Of a DNA stretch of 64,000 nucleotides, positions 42,503 through 50,563 are shown piece by piece. The notes under the pieces are model-generated. The model ran no database searches, was not told the origin of the DNA, and saw nothing but the letters and a program-made list of their open reading frames with translations. The stretch spans positions 17,093 through 81,092 of the forward strand of contig JAHISJ010000024.1 in NCBI GenBank assembly GCA_018818205.1, given 5' to 3'. The stretch is from Patescibacteria group bacterium. GTDB lineage: Bacteria > Patescibacteriota > JABMPQ01 > JAHIRA01. The stretch's first letter is position 1, and every line of letters begins with the position of its first letter. Position numbers and translations under genes: made by a program.

Positions 42503-44260
42503 ATGGAAATCAGAAACATTGCTATTATTGCCCACGTTGATCACGGGAAAACAACCATTACTGACGCCCTGATGCGCCAGACAGGAGCAACAACTAATGA
42601 GTCCGTCAGCATGGACAGCAACGCGCTGGAAAAAGAGCGTGGTATTACTATTTATGCAAAAAATGCGTCCATGTTTTACAATGGTACAAAGATTAACATT
42701 GTTGACACCCCGGGGCATGTAGACTTTGGCTCAGAAGTAGAACGTGTTTTACGGTCAATCGATTCCGTACTGTTAGTAGTTGACGCGCAGGAAGGCCCCA
42801 TGCCACAGACAAAATTTGTTTTAAAAAAATCATTAGAAATTGGCCTAAATCCTCTTGTTGTTATCAATAAAATCGACAAACCTGCTGCGAGAACTAAAGA
42901 AGTCGTTGAAGAAGTGCTTGAACTGTTCATGGATCTTGGCGCAAATGACGATCAGCTAAACTTTCAAACAATGTATACCATCGGGAAAGAAGGCATCGCC
43001 AAAAAAGAATTAGATCAGGATTCAAAGGATATGGTACCCCTCCTTGATGCGATAATAGAAAATGTTGCTCCGGCACCAGCAGAAGTGGACAAGCCACTCC
43101 GCATGCAATCCTTTAATCTGGATTACGACAACTACCTTGGCCGTCTAGCAATCGCTCGAATCTATGAAGGAACAGTGAAAGAAAAAGACCGCCTTTTTAT
43201 AAAACGAGTCGATGGGACAACGCAAAAAGGAACAGTAACTGATCTCTTCACCTTTGAGGGGTTTACCAGAAAAAAAGTTGAGAGCTCTACAGCGGGCGAC
43301 ATTATCGTTGTGGCAGGATTTCCTGACGTCTGCATTGGTGATACCATGGCTACAGATGAGTCAGCCGATCTGTTACCGCACATCGCAGTCGATGAACCAA
43401 CTATTTCTTTGGGATTCATGGTAAACAATTCTCCCTTTTCTGGCCGCGAGGGAACGTTCGTAACAAATTCCCAACTTAAAGAACGTTTAGAAAAAGAATT
43501 GGAAGTAAATGTAGGGATTAAGATCGATTTTTCCCAAGCTGACCAATACACCGTTCATGGGCGTGGGGAAATGCACATTGCTATCTTGCTTGAAAACATG
43601 CGCCGCGAGGGATATGAGATACAAGTCTCTCAACCACACGTGATTTTAAAAGAAAAAGAAGGAAAAACTCTTGAGCCGTTTGAGGAGCTCATTATTGATG
43701 TACCAGAATCTCTTTCTGGCGTCGTTATCGAAAAAATTGCTAAGCGCAAAGGCACTATGATGGAAATGAAAACGCATGCTGCTGGCGCTCGGCTCGTATT
43801 TGAGATTCCAACACGAGGACTTCTTGGCCTTCGCTCAGAATTTATGACCGATACCCGAGGAGAAGGCATTATGTCTTCACGTGTTATTGGGTTTAGGCCA
43901 CATGTAGGCGACATTAAGCGCCGCGAAGTTGGTTCCATGATTTCAATGGTAAAAGGTAAAGCACTTGGCTATGCCCTATATAATTTGCAAGACCGCGGAA
44001 CTCTGTATATTGGACCAACCACGGAAGTGTATGAAGGCATGGTTATTGGAAACGTCAGTAAGGGAACAGATATGGCAGTCAATCCGACCAAAGGAAAGCA
44101 GCTCACTAATATGCGTGCATCTGGGTCAGACGATGCGTTAACTTTGACACCTCCGCTGGACCTTACACTAGAGCGCGGCTTAGAAATTATGGCTGACGAT
44201 GAGTTGCTAGAAATCACTCCTAAATCTATCAGGCTTAGAAAAAAAGTGTTGAAACAGTAG
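42503..44260 (+). CDS. typA: Translational GTPase TypA/BipA
   Basis: NIAIIAHVDHGKTT G1, DTPGHVDF G3, NKID G4. EF-G-like domains. 585 aa. Confidence 0.95.
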   Translation: MEIRNIAIIAHVDHGKTTITDALMRQTGATTNESVSMDSNALEKERGITIYAKNASMFYNGTKINIVDTPGHVDFGSEVERVLRSIDSVLLVVDAQEGPMPQTKFVLKKSLEIGLNPLVVINKIDKPAARTKEVVEEVLELFMDLGANDDQLNFQTMYTIGKEGIAKKELDQDSKDMVPLLDAIIENVAPAPAEVDKPLRMQSFNLDYDNYLGRLAIARIYEGTVKEKDRLFIKRVDGTTQKGTVTDLFTFEGFTRKKVESSTAGDIIVVAGFPDVCIGDTMATDESADLLPHIAVDEPTISLGFMVNNSPFSGREGTFVTNSQLKERLEKELEVNVGIKIDFSQADQYTVHGRGEMHIAILLENMRREGYEIQVSQPHVILKEKEGKTLEPFEELIIDVPESLSGVVIEKIAKRKGTMMEMKTHAAGARLVFEIPTRGLLGLRSEFMTDTRGEGIMSSRVIGFRPHVGDIKRREVGSMISMVKGKALGYALYNLQDRGTLYIGPTTEVYEGMVIGNVSKGTDMAVNPTKGKQLTNMRASGSDDALTLTPPLDLTLERGLEIMADDELLEITPKSIRLRKKVLKQ

Positions 44261-44356
44261 CCAATATAAAGGTTTTCCTTCTTTTCATTACTAGAACACC
44301 CGCAGTCCCTAAGAAAGCTCTAACCTTTAGTTTTAGATAGAAACAATATACACGAT

Positions 44357-44401
44357 TTCCCGGGAATTAACCGTAATAATATTTTACCGGGATTCCCGGT
44401 A
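44357..44401. promoter_or_regulatory. Two palindromic operator-like sites (TTCCCGGGAA and TACCGGGA-T-TCCCGGTA) upstream of the GHKL-ATPase gene
   Basis: Perfect 10-bp palindrome at 44357-44366 and 8+1+8 inverted repeat at 44385-44401. A degenerate third copy aattcctgg at 44419-44427. A TTGACA hexamer at 44404-44409. Confidence 0.45.
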
Positions 44402-44462
44402 ACTTGACATTTTATAGTAATTCCTGGTACACTACGTGTATTCAGTTTTTTTGACATAATCA

Positions 44463-45422
44463 ATGAAAATTCATATCCCAAACAGTGCCTTTTTAGGCAA
44501 TATTGACCCTTTTTTAAAGAACTTCAATCCGAAGGATTCAAGCCATCTTATTATTACCGCAAATAAGAAATGGATTTCTGTTCATCCCGTTGTTCTGTCA
44601 ATGATCGCCTCCCTCGGCATTATGCTGGAACCATCACAAATCAAATGTGAAAAACTTACCGCAACATCTAAACACTACCTAGAAAGGATGGGCTTATTCA
44701 AATTTTTAGGAGTAACCTCGGGCATTACAATAAACAAACATGAATCAGCAGGACGATTTATTCCGCTCACTCAAATTAAAACCTCAAAAGAGCTAACAAA
44801 CTTCATTGATGAAATGACTCCGCTGCTCCACCTTAAACCAAAACATGCAGAACCCCTTAGATATATTATGAGTGAACTAGTCCGCAATGTCTTAGAGCAC
44901 TCGTTATCAAAATTTGGTGCTATTGTCTCAGCCCAGTATCATTCAAAAAACAATACAATAAGAATTGGTATCGCCGACACAGGAATAGGTATTTGGCAAT
45001 CAATGAATAAGTCACATTCCCCTAAAAACGATCTTGAAGCCATTAGGTTAGCGTTGATTCCAGGCATTACGGGAACAACCAGGAAAGAAGGAGGCACCGA
45101 ATTTAACGCAGGAGCCGGACTTTTCTTTATCAAATCAATTGCCACTGTCAATCGTGACTTTTTCATGCTTTACAGTGGGGAAGCCATGTTCAAACTATTA
45201 AAAAGAAAGGGTGAACGTATCCAACTGCATGCCGACCCATTCAAAGATAGATGTTCTAGTAAAAAAACACTTCCTTTCTGGCAGGGAACTGTTGTAGGAA
45301 TTGATATTTCACTAGACACTACTCAAGAATTCTCTATGCTTCTTGACTTAATTAGCCAAACGTATAAAGGAGCTATCAAGGAAAGAAAAAAAGCAAAATA
45401 TAAAAAACCAAAATTCATATGA
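44463..45422 (+). CDS. GHKL-superfamily (histidine-kinase-like) ATPase with uncharacterised N-terminal domain
   Basis: N-box IMSELVRNVLEHS, G1 box IGIADTGIGI, G2 box GTEFNAGAGLFFIKS. No HisKA or phospho-acceptor domain seen. Confidence 0.6.
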   Translation: MKIHIPNSAFLGNIDPFLKNFNPKDSSHLIITANKKWISVHPVVLSMIASLGIMLEPSQIKCEKLTATSKHYLERMGLFKFLGVTSGITINKHESAGRFIPLTQIKTSKELTNFIDEMTPLLHLKPKHAEPLRYIMSELVRNVLEHSLSKFGAIVSAQYHSKNNTIRIGIADTGIGIWQSMNKSHSPKNDLEAIRLALIPGITGTTRKEGGTEFNAGAGLFFIKSIATVNRDFFMLYSGEAMFKLLKRKGERIQLHADPFKDRCSSKKTLPFWQGTVVGIDISLDTTQEFSMLLDLISQTYKGAIKERKKAKYKKPKFI

Positions 45423-45712
45423 TCCACATAAAGCTATCTAAACAGGTTGGTTCATTTGCTGAAAACAAGGACATTGCAAGAGAAATCAGATTAAAAAAGA
45501 TAGTACCTGCGCTTAAAAAAGGACAAAAAGTTGTTATAGATTTTGAGGGCATTGACTCTACAACCCAGTCTTTTATCCATGCTTTAATTAGCGACTTGAT
45601 TCGAAAAAATGGTGCCACAGTTCTTGATGAAATAAGTTTTAAGTCTTGTAATGAAACAGTCCAAAAGATTATTACCATTGTGATCGACTATATGCAAGAA
45701 AGTGAGAACTAG
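45419..45712 (+). CDS. STAS-like small protein (DUF4325-like, anti-sigma-antagonist fold)
   Basis: 97 aa. KVVIDFEGIDSTTQSFIHALISDL pattern. The ATG overlaps the upstream TGA (ATGA), indicating translational coupling. Confidence 0.55.
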   Translation: MIHIKLSKQVGSFAENKDIAREIRLKKIVPALKKGQKVVIDFEGIDSTTQSFIHALISDLIRKNGATVLDEISFKSCNETVQKIITIVIDYMQESEN

Positions 45713-45733
45713 GCTATCCACCAACCATATACA

Positions 45734-46759
45734 ATGCTTTCTCTAAACGACTTCAACTACCACCTTCTCAAAAACTGCATTGCCCAAAGACCAGCGTCTC
45801 CCCGAGACAGCTCTAAACTTTTGGTCTTAGATAAGAGAACAGGAGCTATAACACATAGCTCTTTTTTGCATTTAGATTCTTTTTTACAAAAGGGAGATGT
45901 CCTCATTTTTAATAATTCTGCCGTTTTCCCTGCACGTCTCTACGGGAAAAAGAAAAAAACCGGTGGCAAAGCAGAAGTACTGCTCCTTAAGAACATACAA
46001 GGTTCTCAGTGGGAATGCCTCGCTCGTCCGGGCATTCCTGTGGGTACTACTGTTGTTTTTTCAAAAACCCTCCAAGCAAAAGTCATAAAAATCTGTGCCG
46101 GTGGGAAAAAAAGAGTGATTGAATTTTTAGCATCACGTAAAAAAGTATGGCAAGAGATCGAGCGAATCGGCGCCATACCCACACCGCCATACATTACAGA
46201 AAAACTGAAGAAAAAATCACAATATCAAACCATCTACGCTGATGTATCAAAAAAAGGCTCGGCAGCCGCCCCTACAGCAGGGTTGCACTTTACCAAGAGA
46301 CTGCTCAAAAAGCTCAAAAAGGGTGGAGTCACAACGTGCTATGTAACGCTCCATGTCGGTCTTGGTACATTTGAACCGGTTAGTGAAAAGAACATTACAA
46401 AGCATGTAATGCACTCAGAATGGTACTCAATCGATACTAAAACCCTAAGCACTATCAAGAAAGCAAAAAAAGAGGGGCGACGTATCATTGCAGTCGGTAC
46501 CACCAGCGCTCGTGTACTCGAAACTGTTTTTTCACAAAAGAAGCCTCATCTAGCAGGAGAGACCTCAATCTTCATCTACCCACCGTACACGTTTAAGGCG
46601 TTAGATGGTCTTATTACTAACTTTCACCTCCCAAAATCAACGCTGCTTATGTTGGTTTCAGCACTCACATCGAGAGAAAAAATGCTCCACGCGTACAACG
46701 AGGCAATCAATCATGGTTATCGGTTTTATAGTTTTGGAGACGGAATGCTCATTCAATAA
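45734..46759 (+). CDS. queA: S-adenosylmethionine:tRNA ribosyltransferase-isomerase
   Basis: N-terminal LSLNDFNYHLLKNCIAQRPASPRDSSKLLVLDKRTG and C-terminal QueA family conservation. 341 aa. Confidence 0.9.
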   Translation: MLSLNDFNYHLLKNCIAQRPASPRDSSKLLVLDKRTGAITHSSFLHLDSFLQKGDVLIFNNSAVFPARLYGKKKKTGGKAEVLLLKNIQGSQWECLARPGIPVGTTVVFSKTLQAKVIKICAGGKKRVIEFLASRKKVWQEIERIGAIPTPPYITEKLKKKSQYQTIYADVSKKGSAAAPTAGLHFTKRLLKKLKKGGVTTCYVTLHVGLGTFEPVSEKNITKHVMHSEWYSIDTKTLSTIKKAKKEGRRIIAVGTTSARVLETVFSQKKPHLAGETSIFIYPPYTFKALDGLITNFHLPKSTLLMLVSALTSREKMLHAYNEAINHGYRFYSFGDGMLIQ

Positions 46760-47032: not shown

Positions 47033-49483
47033 CTACATAAGAACAACCGATGCTACCGCATCAGACGCCTGGAGCTTCATTGCCCGCACTCCCTGCGTTG
47101 CCCGTCCATGCACACTTATGGTAGTCACGTTTATGCGGATAATAATCCCTTTTTGGGAAACGATAATAACTTCTTCATTTTCCGGTGTTACCATGCGTGC
47201 ACCAACGATAGAACCATTTTTGGCCGTAATCTTTGCAGTACGAATACCGCTACCACCTCTGCTTTGAACTTTGTACGCCTTGAGTGGTGTTTGTTTGGCA
47301 AACCCATGTCTGGTAACAATCATAAGTGTCCTATTTTTGCTTTCATCTTTCCGTACAACTACCATGCCAATCACCAAGTCCGAGCCCTTAAGACGTATGC
47401 CTCGTACGCCTGATGCCACACGCCCCATCGCCCGAATATCTTTTTCATTAAAACGAATTGATTGCCCACGAGCAGTCACAAGCATAATATCGTCTGCACC
47501 TCCGGTTGGATGAACCCACATGAGTTCATCGCCCTTTTTAATCTTGATTGCGATAAGCCCTGACCGCCGCACAGTATCAAACGCAGCAAGCTCAACCTTT
47601 TTAACAAGCCCTCTCTTGGTTGCCATCGCAAGATATGACGCTTTTTCTTTTTCACCAATAGGGAGTACCGCTGTTACTCGCTCATCAGACGTAAGTTGTA
47701 AGAAGTTAACCAGTGACTTTCCTTTCGCCTGACGACGTAGTGACTTTGGAATCTCGTACGCCTTAAGCTTAAACACACGCCCTGCACTCGTAAAAAACAA
47801 AATGTCAGAGAGAGAAGAGCACGAGTACGCTGAGGTAATAATATCCTCATCTTTAGTAGTCATGCCAGAAACACCTCTGCCCCCACGTCCTTGCGATCTA
47901 TATGTCGCTGTAGGTAAACTCTTAACATACCCGCCTTCAGTAATAGTTACGACCAAGTCCTCCTCAACAACCAAGTCTTCTTCCCTAAAATCACTCACAG
48001 ATCTAACAAAGACTTTGGTGCGCCTCTCGTCACCGTATTGCTCCTTAATTTCTTTAAGCTCCTCTTTAATAATGCCAAGCACTCTTTTTGGATCAGCCAA
48101 AATCGCCTCGAGTTCTTTTATTAATGCTCTCTTTTCTTTGAGTTCATCTTCTATTCTTTTTCGCTCAAGCGCGGCAAGCTGAGAAAGACGCATATTTAAA
48201 ATAGCCTCTGCCTGCAAATCAGTGAATGAGTACGTTTCTTTTAAATTCTTATGCGCAGTATCTCTGTCTTTTGACTTTTTTATAAGCTCAATAATAGCAT
48301 TAATGTGATCAAGCGCCTTTTTTAACCCCTCTAAAATATGTGCTCGGGCCTTAGCTTTGTCGAGCTCAAACTGCGTACGTTTAGTAACAACGTCCTGCCT
48401 ATGTTTTATGTAGTACTCTAAAATCGCCTTTAAATTCAAAAGCTGCGGCTGGATACCATCGACAAGCGCAATCAAGTTCACATGGAACTTATCTTGAAGC
48501 TGCGTAAGCTTAAAGAGGCTGTTAAGCACTTTTTGAGGCGCCGCTTCTTTTTTAAGCTCAATAACAACCCTAATACCATCTTTGTCCGACTCGTCCCGAA
48601 TGTCCTTAATATGTTCTATTTTCTTGTCCCGGACAAGAAATGCAATTTTTTCAATAAGGGTCGCTTTGTTCACCTGGTAGGGGAGCTCCGTCACCACGAT
48701 ACGATACTGCTCATTGTCCTCCTCCACGATATCCGTTTTTGCACGCATAACAATGCTTCCTTTTCCAGTAGCATACGCTTTGGTCACTTCTTTGCGGTCA
48801 AAAATCATGCCGCCGGTCGGGAAATCAGGGCCTGGGATGAGCTTAACCAAGTCTTCTAATGCACAATCAGGATTATCAATAATGTGCGCGACTCCATTGA
48901 TAAGCTCTGTGAGATTGTGCGGAGGAACGTTTGTCGCCATACCGACAGCAATGCCGACGGTACCATTTAGAAGCAAATTAGGAAGCTTTGCGGGAAGCAC
49001 TGATGGCTCCTGTTGACTTCTATCGTAATTGTCAACAAAAGAAACTGTTTCTTTTTCAATATCAAAAAGCAACTCATCACTAATTTTTTCAAGCTTTGCT
49101 TCTGTGTAACGCATCGCAGCTGGCGAATCACCGTCAATAGAACCAAAGTTACCTTGTCCGTTTATCAGAGGATACCGCATTGAGAAATCTTGAGCCATAC
49201 GAGCAAGCGCGTCATACACGGCGATATCTCCATGAGGATGATATTTACCAAGAACTTCACCAACAACTGTTGCTGACTTTCTAAACCGTGAACCACTCTT
49301 AAGCCCGAGTGTCCACATAGCGTACAAAATGCGCCTATGCACTGGTTTTAATCCATCACGTACGTCAGGGAGTGCGCGCGACACAATAACGCTCATGGCA
49401 TAATCCAAGTACGCTGTCTTCATCTCATCTACTATCGGACGGGGTTTGATGTATCCAATTTCGTTTTTAGTATTGTCTGGCAT
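47033..49483 (-). CDS. gyrA: DNA gyrase subunit A
   Basis: [29 protein letters not shown]-terminal signature with the active-site Tyr region. GyrA-box-containing beta-pinwheel C-terminal domain. 816 aa. Confidence 0.95.
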
Positions 49484-49488
49484 AGTAT

Positions 49489-49899
49489 TTAATTATCAGG
49501 CTTATCGTCTTTTTCGCTTGGCGAGGTCTCCTGCTGCACATCCTCAGCACCTCCATTGTCACTAGCTTCTCCTTCCAAAGGCTCATGGATTTCTTCTTTC
49601 ATAGGAAGTCTGGGGATTTCTTCTTCTACTCCCTCTTCTTTGTTTTCTGCTGCTGGCTCTGGTAGAGGAGCGCTGATGGGCTCTTCCTCAATGGTTGTAA
49701 CCGCTTCTTGCTCTTTTGAGCTTTCGTCGTCGTCCGAGTCTCCGATAGACGAAAAAAGATCTGCAGTAGACTGGGTTGAGGTTTTGTCTACTCTCCGACG
49801 TGATGCCGGGAAAAAAACAAAAACCCATAACACAAAAACAACTACCATCCCTACCGCTACAGATACAATAAGATACTTCTTTTTATCTGCTTCCTTCAT
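49489..49899 (-). CDS. Membrane-anchored acidic hypothetical protein
   Basis: Single N-terminal TM ([21 protein letters not shown]), then an E/D-rich tail. Confidence 0.5.
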
Positions 49900-49921
49900 G
49901 GGAACTATCAGTGAACTCTAC

Positions 49922-50563
49922 TTATACATGTGCTGCAAGAAACATAAGATTCGTGCCCTCATGCGGCAGAGTCTTCTTCTTCACGATAATTTTATCAAGT
50001 CCCTTCTCTCTCTTCTCCCCAATCTCATCACAAAAGGCATCAAGATACGTGTCATCTTTTTTATCCGAATGCTGCATAGGAATAACAATGCTCGGCTCAA
50101 TCGCATTCATAATCGTCACTGCTTTTGCCGCTTGTACCGTATTATTGCCCCCAATCGGTAAGAGTAGTACATCAACAATGCCAATATGATCAAGGTTGTC
50201 TTCACTTAATGCACCGTCAAGATAGCCAAGATGACAAACACGAATACCTTCAGCCTTAAATCGATATACAATATTAACATATGCTTCCTCTTGCTCTTTT
50301 TGAAGCTTCGTGGAAAACCCCTCAATCATAACGCTTTTTACTTCATATTCACCAGGAGAATCAATAACAAAAGGGTTTTCCTTAATCGTTTTTGGATCAA
50401 AAAGCTGTGACTGAGTATCAAAGCTTGTCATAACAATATCGCCCTGTTTTTTGAGCGGCTTCTTCTGTTCTTTTTCAGAGGGAGGATTGAATACAACAGT
50501 CGCTTCTTTGCACTGGAAAACAAAGCTACTGTCACCGTACCAAGTGATGTGCATAGTTGACAC
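49922..50563 (-). CDS. MBL-fold metal-dependent hydrolase (UPF0173-like), paralog of 14335..14985
   Basis: Shared architecture with the other MBL gene: N-terminal beta-strand MHITWYGDSSF versus ITYFGNSSF, and LLPIGG versus FLPIGG. Confidence 0.65.
   Translation of the reverse strand: MSTMHITWYGDSSFVFQCKEATVVFNPPSEKEQKKPLKKQGDIVMTSFDTQSQLFDPKTIKENPFVIDSPGEYEVKSVMIEGFSTKLQKEQEEAYVNIVYRFKAEGIRVCHLGYLDGALSEDNLDHIGIVDVLLLPIGGNNTVQAAKAVTIMNAIEPSIVIPMQHSDKKDDTYLDAFCDEIGEKREKGLDKIIVKKKTLPHEGTNLMFLAAHV

What the first reader, a model, noticed from the sequence alone, without database searches (positions are those of the whole stretch)
44340..45712. GHKL-ATPase + STAS-like (DUF4325-like) gene pair with palindromic TCCCGG operators: candidate partner-switch or novel two-gene system
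A 319-aa protein has clear N-, G1- and G2-boxes of the histidine-kinase/Hsp90/MutL ATPase fold but no HisKA domain. It is followed, with ATGA start-stop overlap, by a 97-aa STAS-like protein. This is the architecture of anti-sigma/anti-anti-sigma partner switches. However, the ATPase carries a 120-aa unknown N-terminal domain and no sigma factor gene is adjacent. Upstream lie a perfect TTCCCGGGAA palindrome and a TACCGGGA-T-TCCCGGTA inverted repeat sharing the same half-site, plus a degenerate third copy. This looks like a tightly regulated, self-contained module inserted between typA and queA, of the kind often found in stress or phage-defence contexts.
Basis: partly seen in the sequence, partly recalled or inferred. 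Interest (0 to 1): 0.65.

Follow-up and report, generated by a model that had tools for sequence, protein, structure and literature searches.

The report
Stand-alone kinase–STAS switch cassette
This is a small, self-regulated two-gene cassette, a serine kinase and the small protein it probably phosphorylates. It is related to the recently described DNA-damage-sensing CapK/CapS and VapK/VapS phage-defence switches, but it lacks their output parts and has spread almost unchanged between ultra-small bacteria and archaea.

Summary
Gene A (44463-45422, 319 aa) has an N-terminal STAS-like domain and a SpoIIAB-like GHKL kinase domain. Gene B (45419-45712, 97 aa, ATGA overlap) is a DUF4325/STAS protein. 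The TCCCGG palindromes are a real operator that travels with the pair: ACCGGGAWTCCCGGT (2 mismatches or fewer) lies within 130 nt upstream of A in 71 of 82 homologous loci, against 3 hits in the other 592 kb.

The closest known systems are CapK/CapS and VapK/VapS/VapC (Chambers et al., EMBO J 2026). In those, an ssDNA-activated STAS-GHKL kinase phosphorylates a conserved Ser of a STAS partner.
- The B profile hits PDB 'Escherichia VapS' (E 7e-6), and invariant Ser51 aligns with phospho-acceptor S48.
- A aligns along most of its length with a VapK-like protein (E 1e-15).

The pair lacks the CapS wHTH, the CapK HTH, the VapC toxin and any conserved neighbour. I therefore read it as a new 'KS-only' variant whose output is unknown.

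It is very mobile. Homologues 62-88% identical occur in many CPR bacteria and DPANN archaea, while the host's QueA has no relative above 57%. The operator sits in sigma70-type promoters and in archaeal TATA-type promoters, mostly on leaderless transcripts.

The most likely reading is an auto-repressed, stress- or phage-sensing, toxin-antitoxin-like switch. A sigma-factor partner switch is essentially excluded.

The parts
44357..44367 (.). Upstream auxiliary operator element TTCCCGGGAAT. It contains the half-site CCGGGAAT 27 bp upstream of the main palindrome, and marks the left edge of DNA similarity to homologous cassettes.
   Evidence: Sequence. An upstream half-site lies 27-28 bp from the palindrome in 31 of 33 loci that have one. 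blastn similarity to L001 starts at 44357.
44384..44402 (.). Main 'narrow' palindromic operator TTACCGGGA-T-TCCCGGTAA. The half-sites are 1 bp apart, and it abuts the -35 hexamer.
   Evidence: I7: 9-nt arms, 100% complementary. ACCGGGAWTCCCGGT is exact in 49 of 82 loci and has 2 mismatches or fewer in 71 of 82. Its position peaks at -60 to -51 from the ATG.
44404..44433 (+). Sigma70-type promoter-like site: TTGACA, 18-nt spacer, TACACT, with TG before the -10.
   Evidence: 10 of 12 matches. The same TTGAC-N16-19-TAnnnT arrangement occurs in 53 homologous loci. Consensus match only, not shown to be functional.
44420..44429 (.). Downstream half-site ATTCCTGGTA overlapping the -10 hexamer.
   Evidence: D1. 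A downstream TCCYGG half-site lies 27-29 bp from the palindrome in 39 of 48 loci, usually fused to TATAAT.
44463..45422 (+). Gene A: STAS-GHKL serine-kinase-like protein (VapK/CapK-like), 319 aa. Residues 1-105 form the STAS-like domain (invariant W37, H41-P42). Residues 112-286 form the GHKL/Bergerat fold (E138, N142, D172, G174, G176, G217, G219). Residues 288-319 form a helix and a basic tail, KERKKAKYKKPKFI.
44571..44573 (+). Codon of W37 in the STAS-like domain of A. It is a candidate equivalent of the ssDNA-stacking aromatic residue CapK W68 / VapK F54.
   Evidence: Invariant in 82 of 82. It aligns with W53 of the Deinococcus VapK-like protein. The role is inferred from PMC13373217.
44886..44888 (+). 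Codon of N142, the N-box Asn that coordinates Mg-ATP (the equivalent of CapK N218).
   Evidence: Invariant in 82 of 82. CapK N218A strongly reduces CapS phosphorylation.
45419..45712 (+). Gene B: 97-aa STAS (DUF4325) protein, VapS/CapS-like, with no DNA-binding domain. Its stop codon marks the right edge of the conserved cassette.
45569..45571 (+). Codon of Ser51 of B (motif T49-Q50-S51-F52 at the start of the second long helix). This is the predicted phospho-acceptor.
   Evidence: Invariant in 77 of 77 and in distant phage homologues. It aligns with the Ser of 'FASPF' in PDB 9z7o VapS, which is S48 if the deposited chain carries 18 extra N-terminal residues (134 aa in the chain against 116 in the native protein).

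Best explanation
The locus is a stand-alone 'KS-only' member of the CapK/CapS-VapK/VapS family of kinase-STAS switches. It is carried on a 1.36-kb, horizontally mobile cassette (44357-45712).

Shown here:
- A is a STAS-GHKL protein whose kinase domain is most like the anti-sigma Ser kinases SpoIIAB and RsbW.
- B is a STAS protein homologous to VapS, with an invariant Ser51 at the phospho-acceptor position.
- The two genes are always adjacent and are sometimes fused.
- An array of CCGGGAW/WTCCCGG half-sites travels with the pair. It consists of a narrow palindrome next to the -35 plus half-sites 27-28 bp to either side, one of which overlaps the -10. It is kept in both bacterial and archaeal promoter contexts.

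Inferred:
- A phosphorylates B on Ser51 when A is activated. By analogy with CapK and VapK the signal is single-stranded DNA from DNA damage or phage infection, bound between the STAS and GHKL domains around W37.
- The cassette represses its own promoter through a factor it encodes itself. The reasoning is that no host regulator can be shared by CPR bacteria and DPANN archaea. The weak evidence favours A, or an A-B complex, over B alone.
- Phosphorylation of B switches the complex and so changes both repression and whatever A or B does to the cell.

No effector gene accompanies the pair, so the output must lie within the two proteins. The most likely form is toxin-antitoxin-like, with A as effector and B as its inhibitor or pseudosubstrate. 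The alternative is a universal cellular target.
For: Fold and family:
- The B profile hits PDB 9z7o 'Escherichia VapS' at E 7e-6, with S51 aligned to the conserved Ser.
- A against the kinase of a Deinococcus STAS-GHKL + DUF4325 + PIN operon: BLASTP 1e-15 over residues 9-257, hhalign 97.5%.
- N-terminal STAS scores above the Pfam cutoff in the Deinococcus and Marinitoga homologues.

Catalytic and acceptor residues: N142, D172, G174, G176 and W37 are invariant in 82 of 82; S51 is invariant in 77 of 77.

Linkage: B follows A in 86 of 88 loci. Fused A+B proteins exist (phrog_5816; N-terminus of a DrmA model).

Operator: present in 71 of 82 loci against 3 hits in 592 kb, with regular 27-28 bp spacing, in both sigma70-type and TATA-type promoters.

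Autonomy and mobility:
- No recurrent neighbour; the most common is found in 4 of 88 loci.
- DNA similarity is confined to 44357-45712.
- A has a homologue at 88% identity and more than 100 clusters at 70% or more, including in archaea. Host QueA has nothing above 57%.

Conflict context:
- Prophage accessory positions.
- Experimental data on CapKS and VapKSC.
- DUF4325 is coupled to PIN toxins.
Against: - No biochemical step was tested.
- B lacks the wHTH that makes CapS a repressor. Neither protein has a recognisable DNA-binding domain, so the operator-binding factor is unidentified.
- No toxin or effector gene is present.
- Immediate neighbours are mostly housekeeping genes. Only a few of 130 are defence-like, so 'guilt by association' with defence islands is weak.
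- PADLOC has no model for the pair itself.
- W37 is not conserved in more distant homologues, so ssDNA sensing may not carry over.
- The hint that A reads the operator (G12N/N13S with the 1-bp-shorter palindrome) comes from a single clade.
Confidence: 0.55

Rival explanations
1. Pure addiction-type toxin-antitoxin module. A is a kinase or ATPase toxin held in check by B, the complex auto-represses the promoter, and the cassette persists and spreads as a selfish element with no sensing role.
For: - Two small overlapping genes with an operator array over the -35 and -10.
- Scattered insertion between housekeeping genes, with no conserved neighbour.
- Extreme lateral spread.
- DUF4325 proteins partner PIN toxins, and VapS is a proven antitoxin.
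Against: - SpoIIAB-type GHKL kinases are not known as toxins.
- The conserved phospho-acceptor Ser and the STAS sensor domain on A argue for signal-dependent switching, as in VapKSC.
- No toxicity data exist.
Confidence: 0.2
2. CapKS-like transcriptional controller of the neighbouring gene or genes. In the window that would be queA, which starts 22 nt after B with no terminator between them.
For: CapK/CapS regulate the operon downstream of them. queA is on the same strand, 22 nt downstream, with no terminator-like site between.
Against: - Downstream genes differ in every locus and many are on the opposite strand.
- No palindrome lies downstream of B.
- B has no wHTH.
Confidence: 0.08
3. B acts in trans as the regulated inhibitor of a toxin or effector encoded elsewhere in the genome, such as a PIN/VapC-like nuclease. 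The pair would then be a split VapKSC.
For: VapS inhibits VapC and is released on phosphorylation. B has a C-terminal helix (residues 79-96), as VapS does.
Against: - No VapC-like ORF is found in the 64-kb window by phmmer.
- A cassette that moves alone between phyla and domains cannot rely on a specific unlinked partner.
- B is 19 residues shorter than Escherichia VapS (97 against 116 aa).
Confidence: 0.07
4. Classical anti-sigma / anti-anti-sigma partner switch (SpoIIAB-SpoIIAA or RsbW-RsbV type) that controls a host sigma factor.
For: The best structural matches are SpoIIAB and RsbW for A, and RsbS, RsbV and SpoIIAA for B. JGI annotates homologues as 'anti-sigma regulatory factor'.
Against: - No sigma factor or PP2C phosphatase lies in any neighbourhood.
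- Nearly identical cassettes occur in DPANN archaea, which have no sigma factors, under TATA-box promoters.
- A carries an extra STAS domain, as VapK and CapK do.
Confidence: 0.03

Closest known systems
VapKSC (VapK kinase, VapS STAS antitoxin, VapC PIN toxin), Chambers et al., EMBO J 2026, PMC13373217
   Same: - The kinase has the same STAS-GHKL architecture with no HTH. A aligns collinearly with a VapK-like protein (E 1e-15).
- The partner is a DUF4325/STAS protein with an invariant Ser at the VapS S48 position.
- Gene order is kinase then STAS, tightly coupled.
   Different: - There is no vapC/PIN gene in the window or in any of 88 homologous loci.
- B is 97 aa against 116 aa for VapS.
- A has an extra C-terminal helix and basic tail.
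- The cassette has its own conserved palindromic operator array.
- The distribution centres on CPR bacteria and DPANN archaea.
CapK/CapS (controller of adjacent immune operons such as CBASS, Bub and Thoeris), same paper
   Same: - It is a kinase-STAS substrate pair.
- It is auto-regulated through palindromes over the promoter, including a 'narrow' palindrome with half-sites 1 bp apart plus additional sites.
- The GHKL Asn and the STAS Ser are conserved.
   Different: - The N-terminal HTH of CapK and the C-terminal wHTH of CapS are both absent.
- There is no downstream immune operon.
- The half-site sequence is CCGGGA, not TTAA.
SpoIIAB-SpoIIAA and RsbW-RsbV partner-switching modules; RsbR/RsbS/RsbT stressosome
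   Same: - The substrate has the STAS fold, with the Ser at the start of the second helix.
- Two STAS domains plus one kinase recall RsbR/RsbS/RsbT.
   Different: - There is no sigma factor, phosphatase or RsbU-type output.
- One STAS domain is fused to the kinase.
- The cassette is present in archaea and is mobile.
Type II toxin-antitoxin operons with kinase toxins (for example hipBA)
   Same: - It is a two-gene, translationally coupled, mobile operon.
- Multiple palindromic operators overlap the -35 and -10, which suggests autorepression.
   Different: - The kinase fold is unrelated (GHKL, not the HipA/PI3-4-kinase-like fold).
- There is no HTH antitoxin.
- Toxicity has not been shown.

Membership tests
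CapK/VapK-CapS/VapS kinase-STAS switch family (PMC13373217) | The kinase polypeptide combines a STAS domain with a GHKL kinase domain. | tested here: met
   [not shown]
CapK/VapK-CapS/VapS kinase-STAS switch family (PMC13373217) | The kinase gene is immediately followed by a gene for a STAS-domain partner. | tested here: met
   ATGA overlap in the window. B follows A in 86 of 88 loci. B matches DUF4325 at 58.6 bits and has a STAS fold.
CapK/VapK-CapS/VapS kinase-STAS switch family (PMC13373217) | The STAS partner has an absolutely conserved Ser/Thr on its second helix (CapS S54, VapS S48). | tested here: met
   S51 is invariant in 77 of 77. It aligns with the Ser of VapS in PDB 9z7o.
CapK/VapK-CapS/VapS kinase-STAS switch family (PMC13373217) | The kinase has a conserved aromatic residue in its STAS domain that contacts ssDNA (CapK W68, VapK F54). 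| tested here: inconclusive
   W37 is invariant in 82 of 82 and aligns with W53 of the Deinococcus VapK-like protein.
CapK/VapK-CapS/VapS kinase-STAS switch family (PMC13373217) | The kinase phosphorylates its partner in an ssDNA-dependent manner. | not testable with these tools
   This needs Phos-tag or kinase assays.
CapKS (transcriptional controller) | CapS carries a C-terminal wHTH, CapK carries an N-terminal HTH, and a regulated operon lies downstream. | tested here: not met
   B is 97 aa and is STAS only. A has no HTH hit. Downstream genes vary between loci.
VapKSC (three-gene toxin-antitoxin defence system) | A VapC-like PIN nuclease gene lies in the operon. | tested here: not met
   queA follows B. 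No family recurs among the 458 neighbouring ORFs, and none recurs in more than 4 of the 88 loci. No VapC-like ORF is found in the window.
Anti-sigma / anti-anti-sigma partner switch (SpoIIAB/SpoIIAA) | A cognate sigma factor, and usually a PP2C phosphatase, is under its control. | tested here: not met
   Neither occurs in any neighbourhood. The cassette is present in archaea.
Two-component sensor histidine kinase | A HisKA/DHp domain with a phospho-acceptor His, and a cognate response regulator. | tested here: not met
   There is no HisKA hit. NCBIfam histidine-kinase hits score only 10-18 bits against cutoffs of 334 or more.
DISARM DrmA | A DrmA helicase core. | tested here: not met
   A and B match only positions 76-249 and 314-390 of a 1750-position model. 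That corresponds to an N-terminal kinase-STAS fusion, not the helicase.
Type II toxin-antitoxin module | A toxic protein is neutralised by its co-transcribed partner, and the complex auto-represses the operon. | not testable with these tools
   The architecture and the operator fit. Toxicity and neutralisation have not been tested.

The most novel reading that the evidence does not exclude
The KS-only cassette is a complete two-protein sensing-and-effector system. The STAS-GHKL kinase would sense the signal (ssDNA or infection), bind the operator as autorepressor without any HTH, and act as the effector. The STAS protein would be its phospho-regulated inhibitor. On this reading it is a new class of toxin-antitoxin or abortive-infection module, built on leaderless transcripts so that the same cassette works in both CPR bacteria and DPANN archaea. 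It may also be the ancestral core from which CapKS and VapKSC were elaborated.
Probability: 0.2. Interest if true: 0.8.

Novelty: new variant of a known kind. Interest (0 to 1): 0.62.

Why it matters
The kinase-STAS pair was recognised only in 2026 as a DNA-damage sensor that switches on immune operons (CapKS) or releases a toxin (VapKSC). This cassette has neither output.

- Despite lacking both outputs it is under very strong constraint: 62-88% identity across phyla and across the bacteria/archaea divide.
- It carries its own operator, combined with two different promoter types.

The pair must therefore have a function of its own. Defining that function would show what the minimal kinase-STAS core does. 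It would also show how an operator can be read without a known DNA-binding domain. The result might be one of the few conflict or stress systems characteristic of the ultra-small CPR and DPANN organisms. The sigma70-like promoter and the 1.36-kb size make the cassette directly testable in E. coli.

Tried and rejected
- hhalign of A's N-terminal domain against the B family was not significant (probability 0.3%). STAS identity of that domain rests on homology to VapK-like proteins and on Pfam hits in homologues.
- phmmer of single A or B sequences against the PDB found nothing useful. Only the B profile found VapS.
- PADLOC gave only the N-terminus of one DrmA model. NCBIfam gave nothing above cutoff.
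- Literature searches for DUF4325 and PF14213 gave 3 and 0 papers. One modularity preprint describes an unrelated HATPase system, Ambrosia.
- The search for a conserved third gene found none. Pfam and PADLOC census of 130 immediate neighbours showed mostly housekeeping genes, and no neighbour family occurs in more than 4 of the 130.
- The covariation test meant to assign the DNA-binding protein was underpowered, because the operator is nearly invariant. The only signal, G12N/N13S in A, comes from one clade.
- No empty typA-queA site could be sought, because no close relative of the host exists in the databases (QueA best hit 57%).
- Rfam and tRNA scans of the region were empty. An RNA element or a tRNA-linked island is therefore not supported.
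- Scans of viral contigs found only 5 phage loci, so phages do not appear to be the main carriers of the CPR/DPANN clade.
Full report
**Observation.** The two ORFs are as described. A is 44463..45422 (+), 319 aa, and B is 45419..45712 (+), 97 aa. They overlap by ATGA and lie between typA/BipA (42503..44260) and queA (45734..46759).
- Pfam gives A a sub-threshold HATPase_c_2 hit (25 bits against a cutoff of 27.4) and no HisKA. It gives B a clear DUF4325 'STAS-like' hit (58.6 bits against 23).
- The palindromes TTCCCGGGAA (44357-66) and TTACCGGGA-T-TCCCGGTAA (44384-44402), and the degenerate copy ATTCCTGGTA (44420-29), are all present.
- The main palindrome abuts a TTGACA-18-TACACT promoter-like site.
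- In the window alone the enrichment is modest.
- The pair has lower GC (0.34-0.40) than its flanks (0.43-0.46).

**The proteins.**
- An AlphaFold model of A (pTM 0.83) has an N-terminal alpha/beta domain (residues 1-105), a Bergerat-fold domain, and a C-terminal helix with a basic tail.
- The B model (pLDDT 94) matches STAS domains: SLC26 STAS, RsbR, RsbS, RsbV and SpoIIAA.
- The ATP-binding residues of A (E138, N142, D172, G174, G176, G219) are invariant in 82 homologues (G217 in 81 of 82). W37 in the N-terminal domain is invariant too.
- In B the motif T49-Q50-S51-F52 is invariant in 77 sequences. The 'DS' serine S47 is variable.

**Distribution and linkage.**
- A has 3,186 relatives in the database, clustered at 90% identity. 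The best 120 are 317-331 aa long (nearly all 319) and 70-88% identical.
- They come from many Patescibacteria (CPR) lineages, WOR-1 and bins labelled Nitrospirae.
- B behaves the same way and also occurs in Woesearchaeota, Diapherotrites, Nanoarchaeota, Aenigmatarchaeota and Thermoplasmatota.
- The host's own QueA has no relative above 57% identity in the same database. The cassette has therefore been transferred laterally and recently, relative to host divergence.
- In 88 loci fetched from genomes and metagenomes, B follows A in 86. The other two contigs end just after A.
- Fused A+B proteins exist. One PHROG family and the N-terminus of one PADLOC DrmA model also cover both proteins in order.
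- No third gene recurs beside the pair. The commonest neighbour family, gyrA, occurs in 4 of 88 loci.
- The 130 immediate neighbours are mostly housekeeping genes, with only a few defence-like helicases or AbiEii-like ATPases.
- DNA similarity between the window and other loci runs only from 44357, the first palindrome, to about 45706-45710, just short of B's stop codon (45710-45712). That defines a 1.36-kb unit.

**The operator.**
- ACCGGGAWTCCCGGT lies within 130 nt upstream of A in 49 of 82 loci exactly, and in 71 of 82 with 2 mismatches or fewer.
- The remaining 592 kb of those loci hold three hits. Two of them are duplicated promoter copies in front of the same cassette.
- The palindrome usually abuts the -35.
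- A second full site or a half-site lies 27-29 bp downstream, fused to the -10 (…TCCCGGTATAAT), in 39 of 48 cases.
- An inverted half-site lies 27-28 bp upstream in 31 of 33 cases. The window has all three elements at these spacings.
- In 53 loci the context is a sigma70-type promoter. In 40 of these the -10 is only 5-11 nt from the start codon.
- In 17 loci, whose flanking genes look archaeal, the same palindrome precedes a TTTATAAATA box 30-32 nt from the ATG.
- So the operator is kept while the core promoter is exchanged, and most transcripts would be leaderless.
- I infer that the factor reading the operator is encoded by the cassette itself. No regulator can be assumed common to CPR bacteria and DPANN archaea.
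- A more distant phage clade (48-49% identity) has a different 16-nt inverted repeat in the same place.

**Comparison with known systems.** DUF4325 is almost absent from the literature. One survey notes PIN/VapC genes coupled to DUF4325 genes. One prophage description shows a 293-aa protein plus DUF4325 pair between cI and the integrase. The decisive source is Chambers et al., EMBO J 2026 (PMC13373217).
- CapK (HTH-STAS-GHKL) is activated by ssDNA and phosphorylates a conserved Ser of CapS (STAS-wHTH). That breaks the repressor dimer and de-represses adjacent immune operons.
- In VapKSC, VapK (STAS-GHKL) phosphorylates VapS (STAS plus a C-terminal helix), which releases the VapC PIN toxin.
- The vapKSC operon protects against phage Bas42.

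Tests made here:
- A profile of the B family hits PDB 9z7o 'Escherichia VapS' (E 7e-6), with S51 aligned to the Ser that corresponds to S48.
- A Deinococcus gobiensis plasmid carries an ATP-binding + DUF4325 + PIN operon.
- Its kinase has an N-terminal Pfam STAS domain and aligns with residues 9-257 of A (BLASTP 1e-15, hhalign 97.5%).
- Its W53 aligns with W37 of A.
- The STAS protein of that operon aligns with the B profile (hhalign probability 85.5%, E 5.7e-06).

A and B therefore belong to this kinase-STAS family. A's 'unknown' N-terminal domain is the STAS sensor domain of VapK and CapK.

**What differs.**
- B has no wHTH and A has no HTH.
- There is no PIN gene in the window or next to any homologue.
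- There is no constant downstream operon.

The defining features of CapKS and of VapKSC as complete systems are therefore not met. The sigma-factor partner switch is excluded as the conserved function, because there are no sigma or phosphatase neighbours and the cassette occurs in archaea.

**Conflict context.**
- Distant two-gene relatives occupy prophage accessory positions. Examples are after the lysin in GBS prophages, next to the integrase in Marinitoga MPV1, after the endolysin in a Bacteroides phage, and between tail genes in IMG/VR contigs.
- One archaeal locus lies beside a type I R-M system.
- One locus has a paralogous HTH-GHKL-DUF4325 protein next door.

**Mechanism.**
- Shown: the folds, the conserved catalytic and acceptor residues, the obligate linkage, the module-specific operator array, and the mobility.
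- Inferred by homology: A phosphorylates B on Ser51 on activation, probably by ssDNA.
- Inferred from distribution: the cassette auto-represses through its own product.
- Open: which protein binds DNA. Six loci have a palindrome 1 bp shorter (TACCGG-N4-CCGGTA). All carry G12N/N13S in A, while B is unchanged at conserved positions. A also has a conserved basic C-terminal extension that the Deinococcus VapK-like protein lacks. This favours A, but it comes from one clade and is weak.
- Also open: the output. With no effector gene, the most economical reading is a toxin-antitoxin-like switch in which the kinase itself, or the released STAS protein, acts on a universal target. Pure addiction, control of the downstream gene, and a trans-encoded toxin remain possible but less likely.

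**Verdict.** The pair belongs to a family described in 2026, but it is a distinct, effector-less and HTH-less two-gene variant. It has its own operator, a leaderless design and an unusual cross-domain spread, so I classify it as a new variant of a known kind, of moderately high interest.

Noticed in passing
L022, L037, L048, L055 and others against L002, L046, L080 and others (upstream 130 nt of A); window 44404-44462: The same operator sits in sigma70-type promoters (53 loci; in 40 of them the -10 is 5-11 nt from the start codon) and in TATA-box promoters (17 loci; TATA 30-32 nt from the ATG). Transcripts would therefore be leaderless in both domains. The window has a 29-nt leader after TACACT, plus a possible extended -10 (TGACATAAT, 44450-44458) 4 nt before the ATG.
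   Followed up: partly
L008:4737-5747 (+) and L008:7254-8219 (+): Directly upstream of that locus's A-B pair lies a single 336-aa protein with a weak wHTH, HATPase_c_2 and DUF4325. It looks like a fused paralogue with a DNA-binding head. An APH-family phosphotransferase lies downstream.
   Followed up: partly
L016:8001-9250, L017 and L018 (IMG/VR phage contigs): An A-B pair 48-49% identical is inserted between tail genes of a phage. It is preceded by a different 16-nt inverted repeat (TACCCGTAGATCGTAT / ATACGACCTACGGGTA) that flanks TTGACA and overlaps TATAAT.
   Followed up: partly
L052 around 5663 and L059 around 264: A second complete copy of the operator and promoter lies about 340 nt upstream of A, in addition to the proximal one. 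Its purpose is unknown.
   Followed up: no
window 45712-45734: queA starts 22 nt after the stop codon of B, on the same strand, with no terminator-like site between. It may be partly co-transcribed from the cassette promoter.
   Followed up: no
window 47033-50563; L005:1280-5324: gyrA and an MBL-fold hydrolase lie near the cassette in the window and in 3-4 other loci. This could reflect vertical inheritance in related CPR lineages or a preferred insertion region.
   Followed up: no
PADLOC model PDLC02567 (DrmA), positions 76-249 and 314-390: A and B hit consecutive N-terminal segments of one DISARM DrmA model. Some DrmA proteins therefore appear to carry a fused kinase-STAS module at the N-terminus.
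   Followed up: no
window 45734-46759 (queA): The best non-self homologue of the host's QueA among 5.8 billion proteins is only 57% identical. The host lineage is poorly sampled, and no empty-site comparison was possible.
   Followed up: yes
L027:6597 (inside gene A); the equivalent in the window is about 45057-45075: The coding sequence of the conserved PGITG motif (CCGGGAATCACGGG) resembles the operator palindrome. This is probably coincidence.
   Followed up: no
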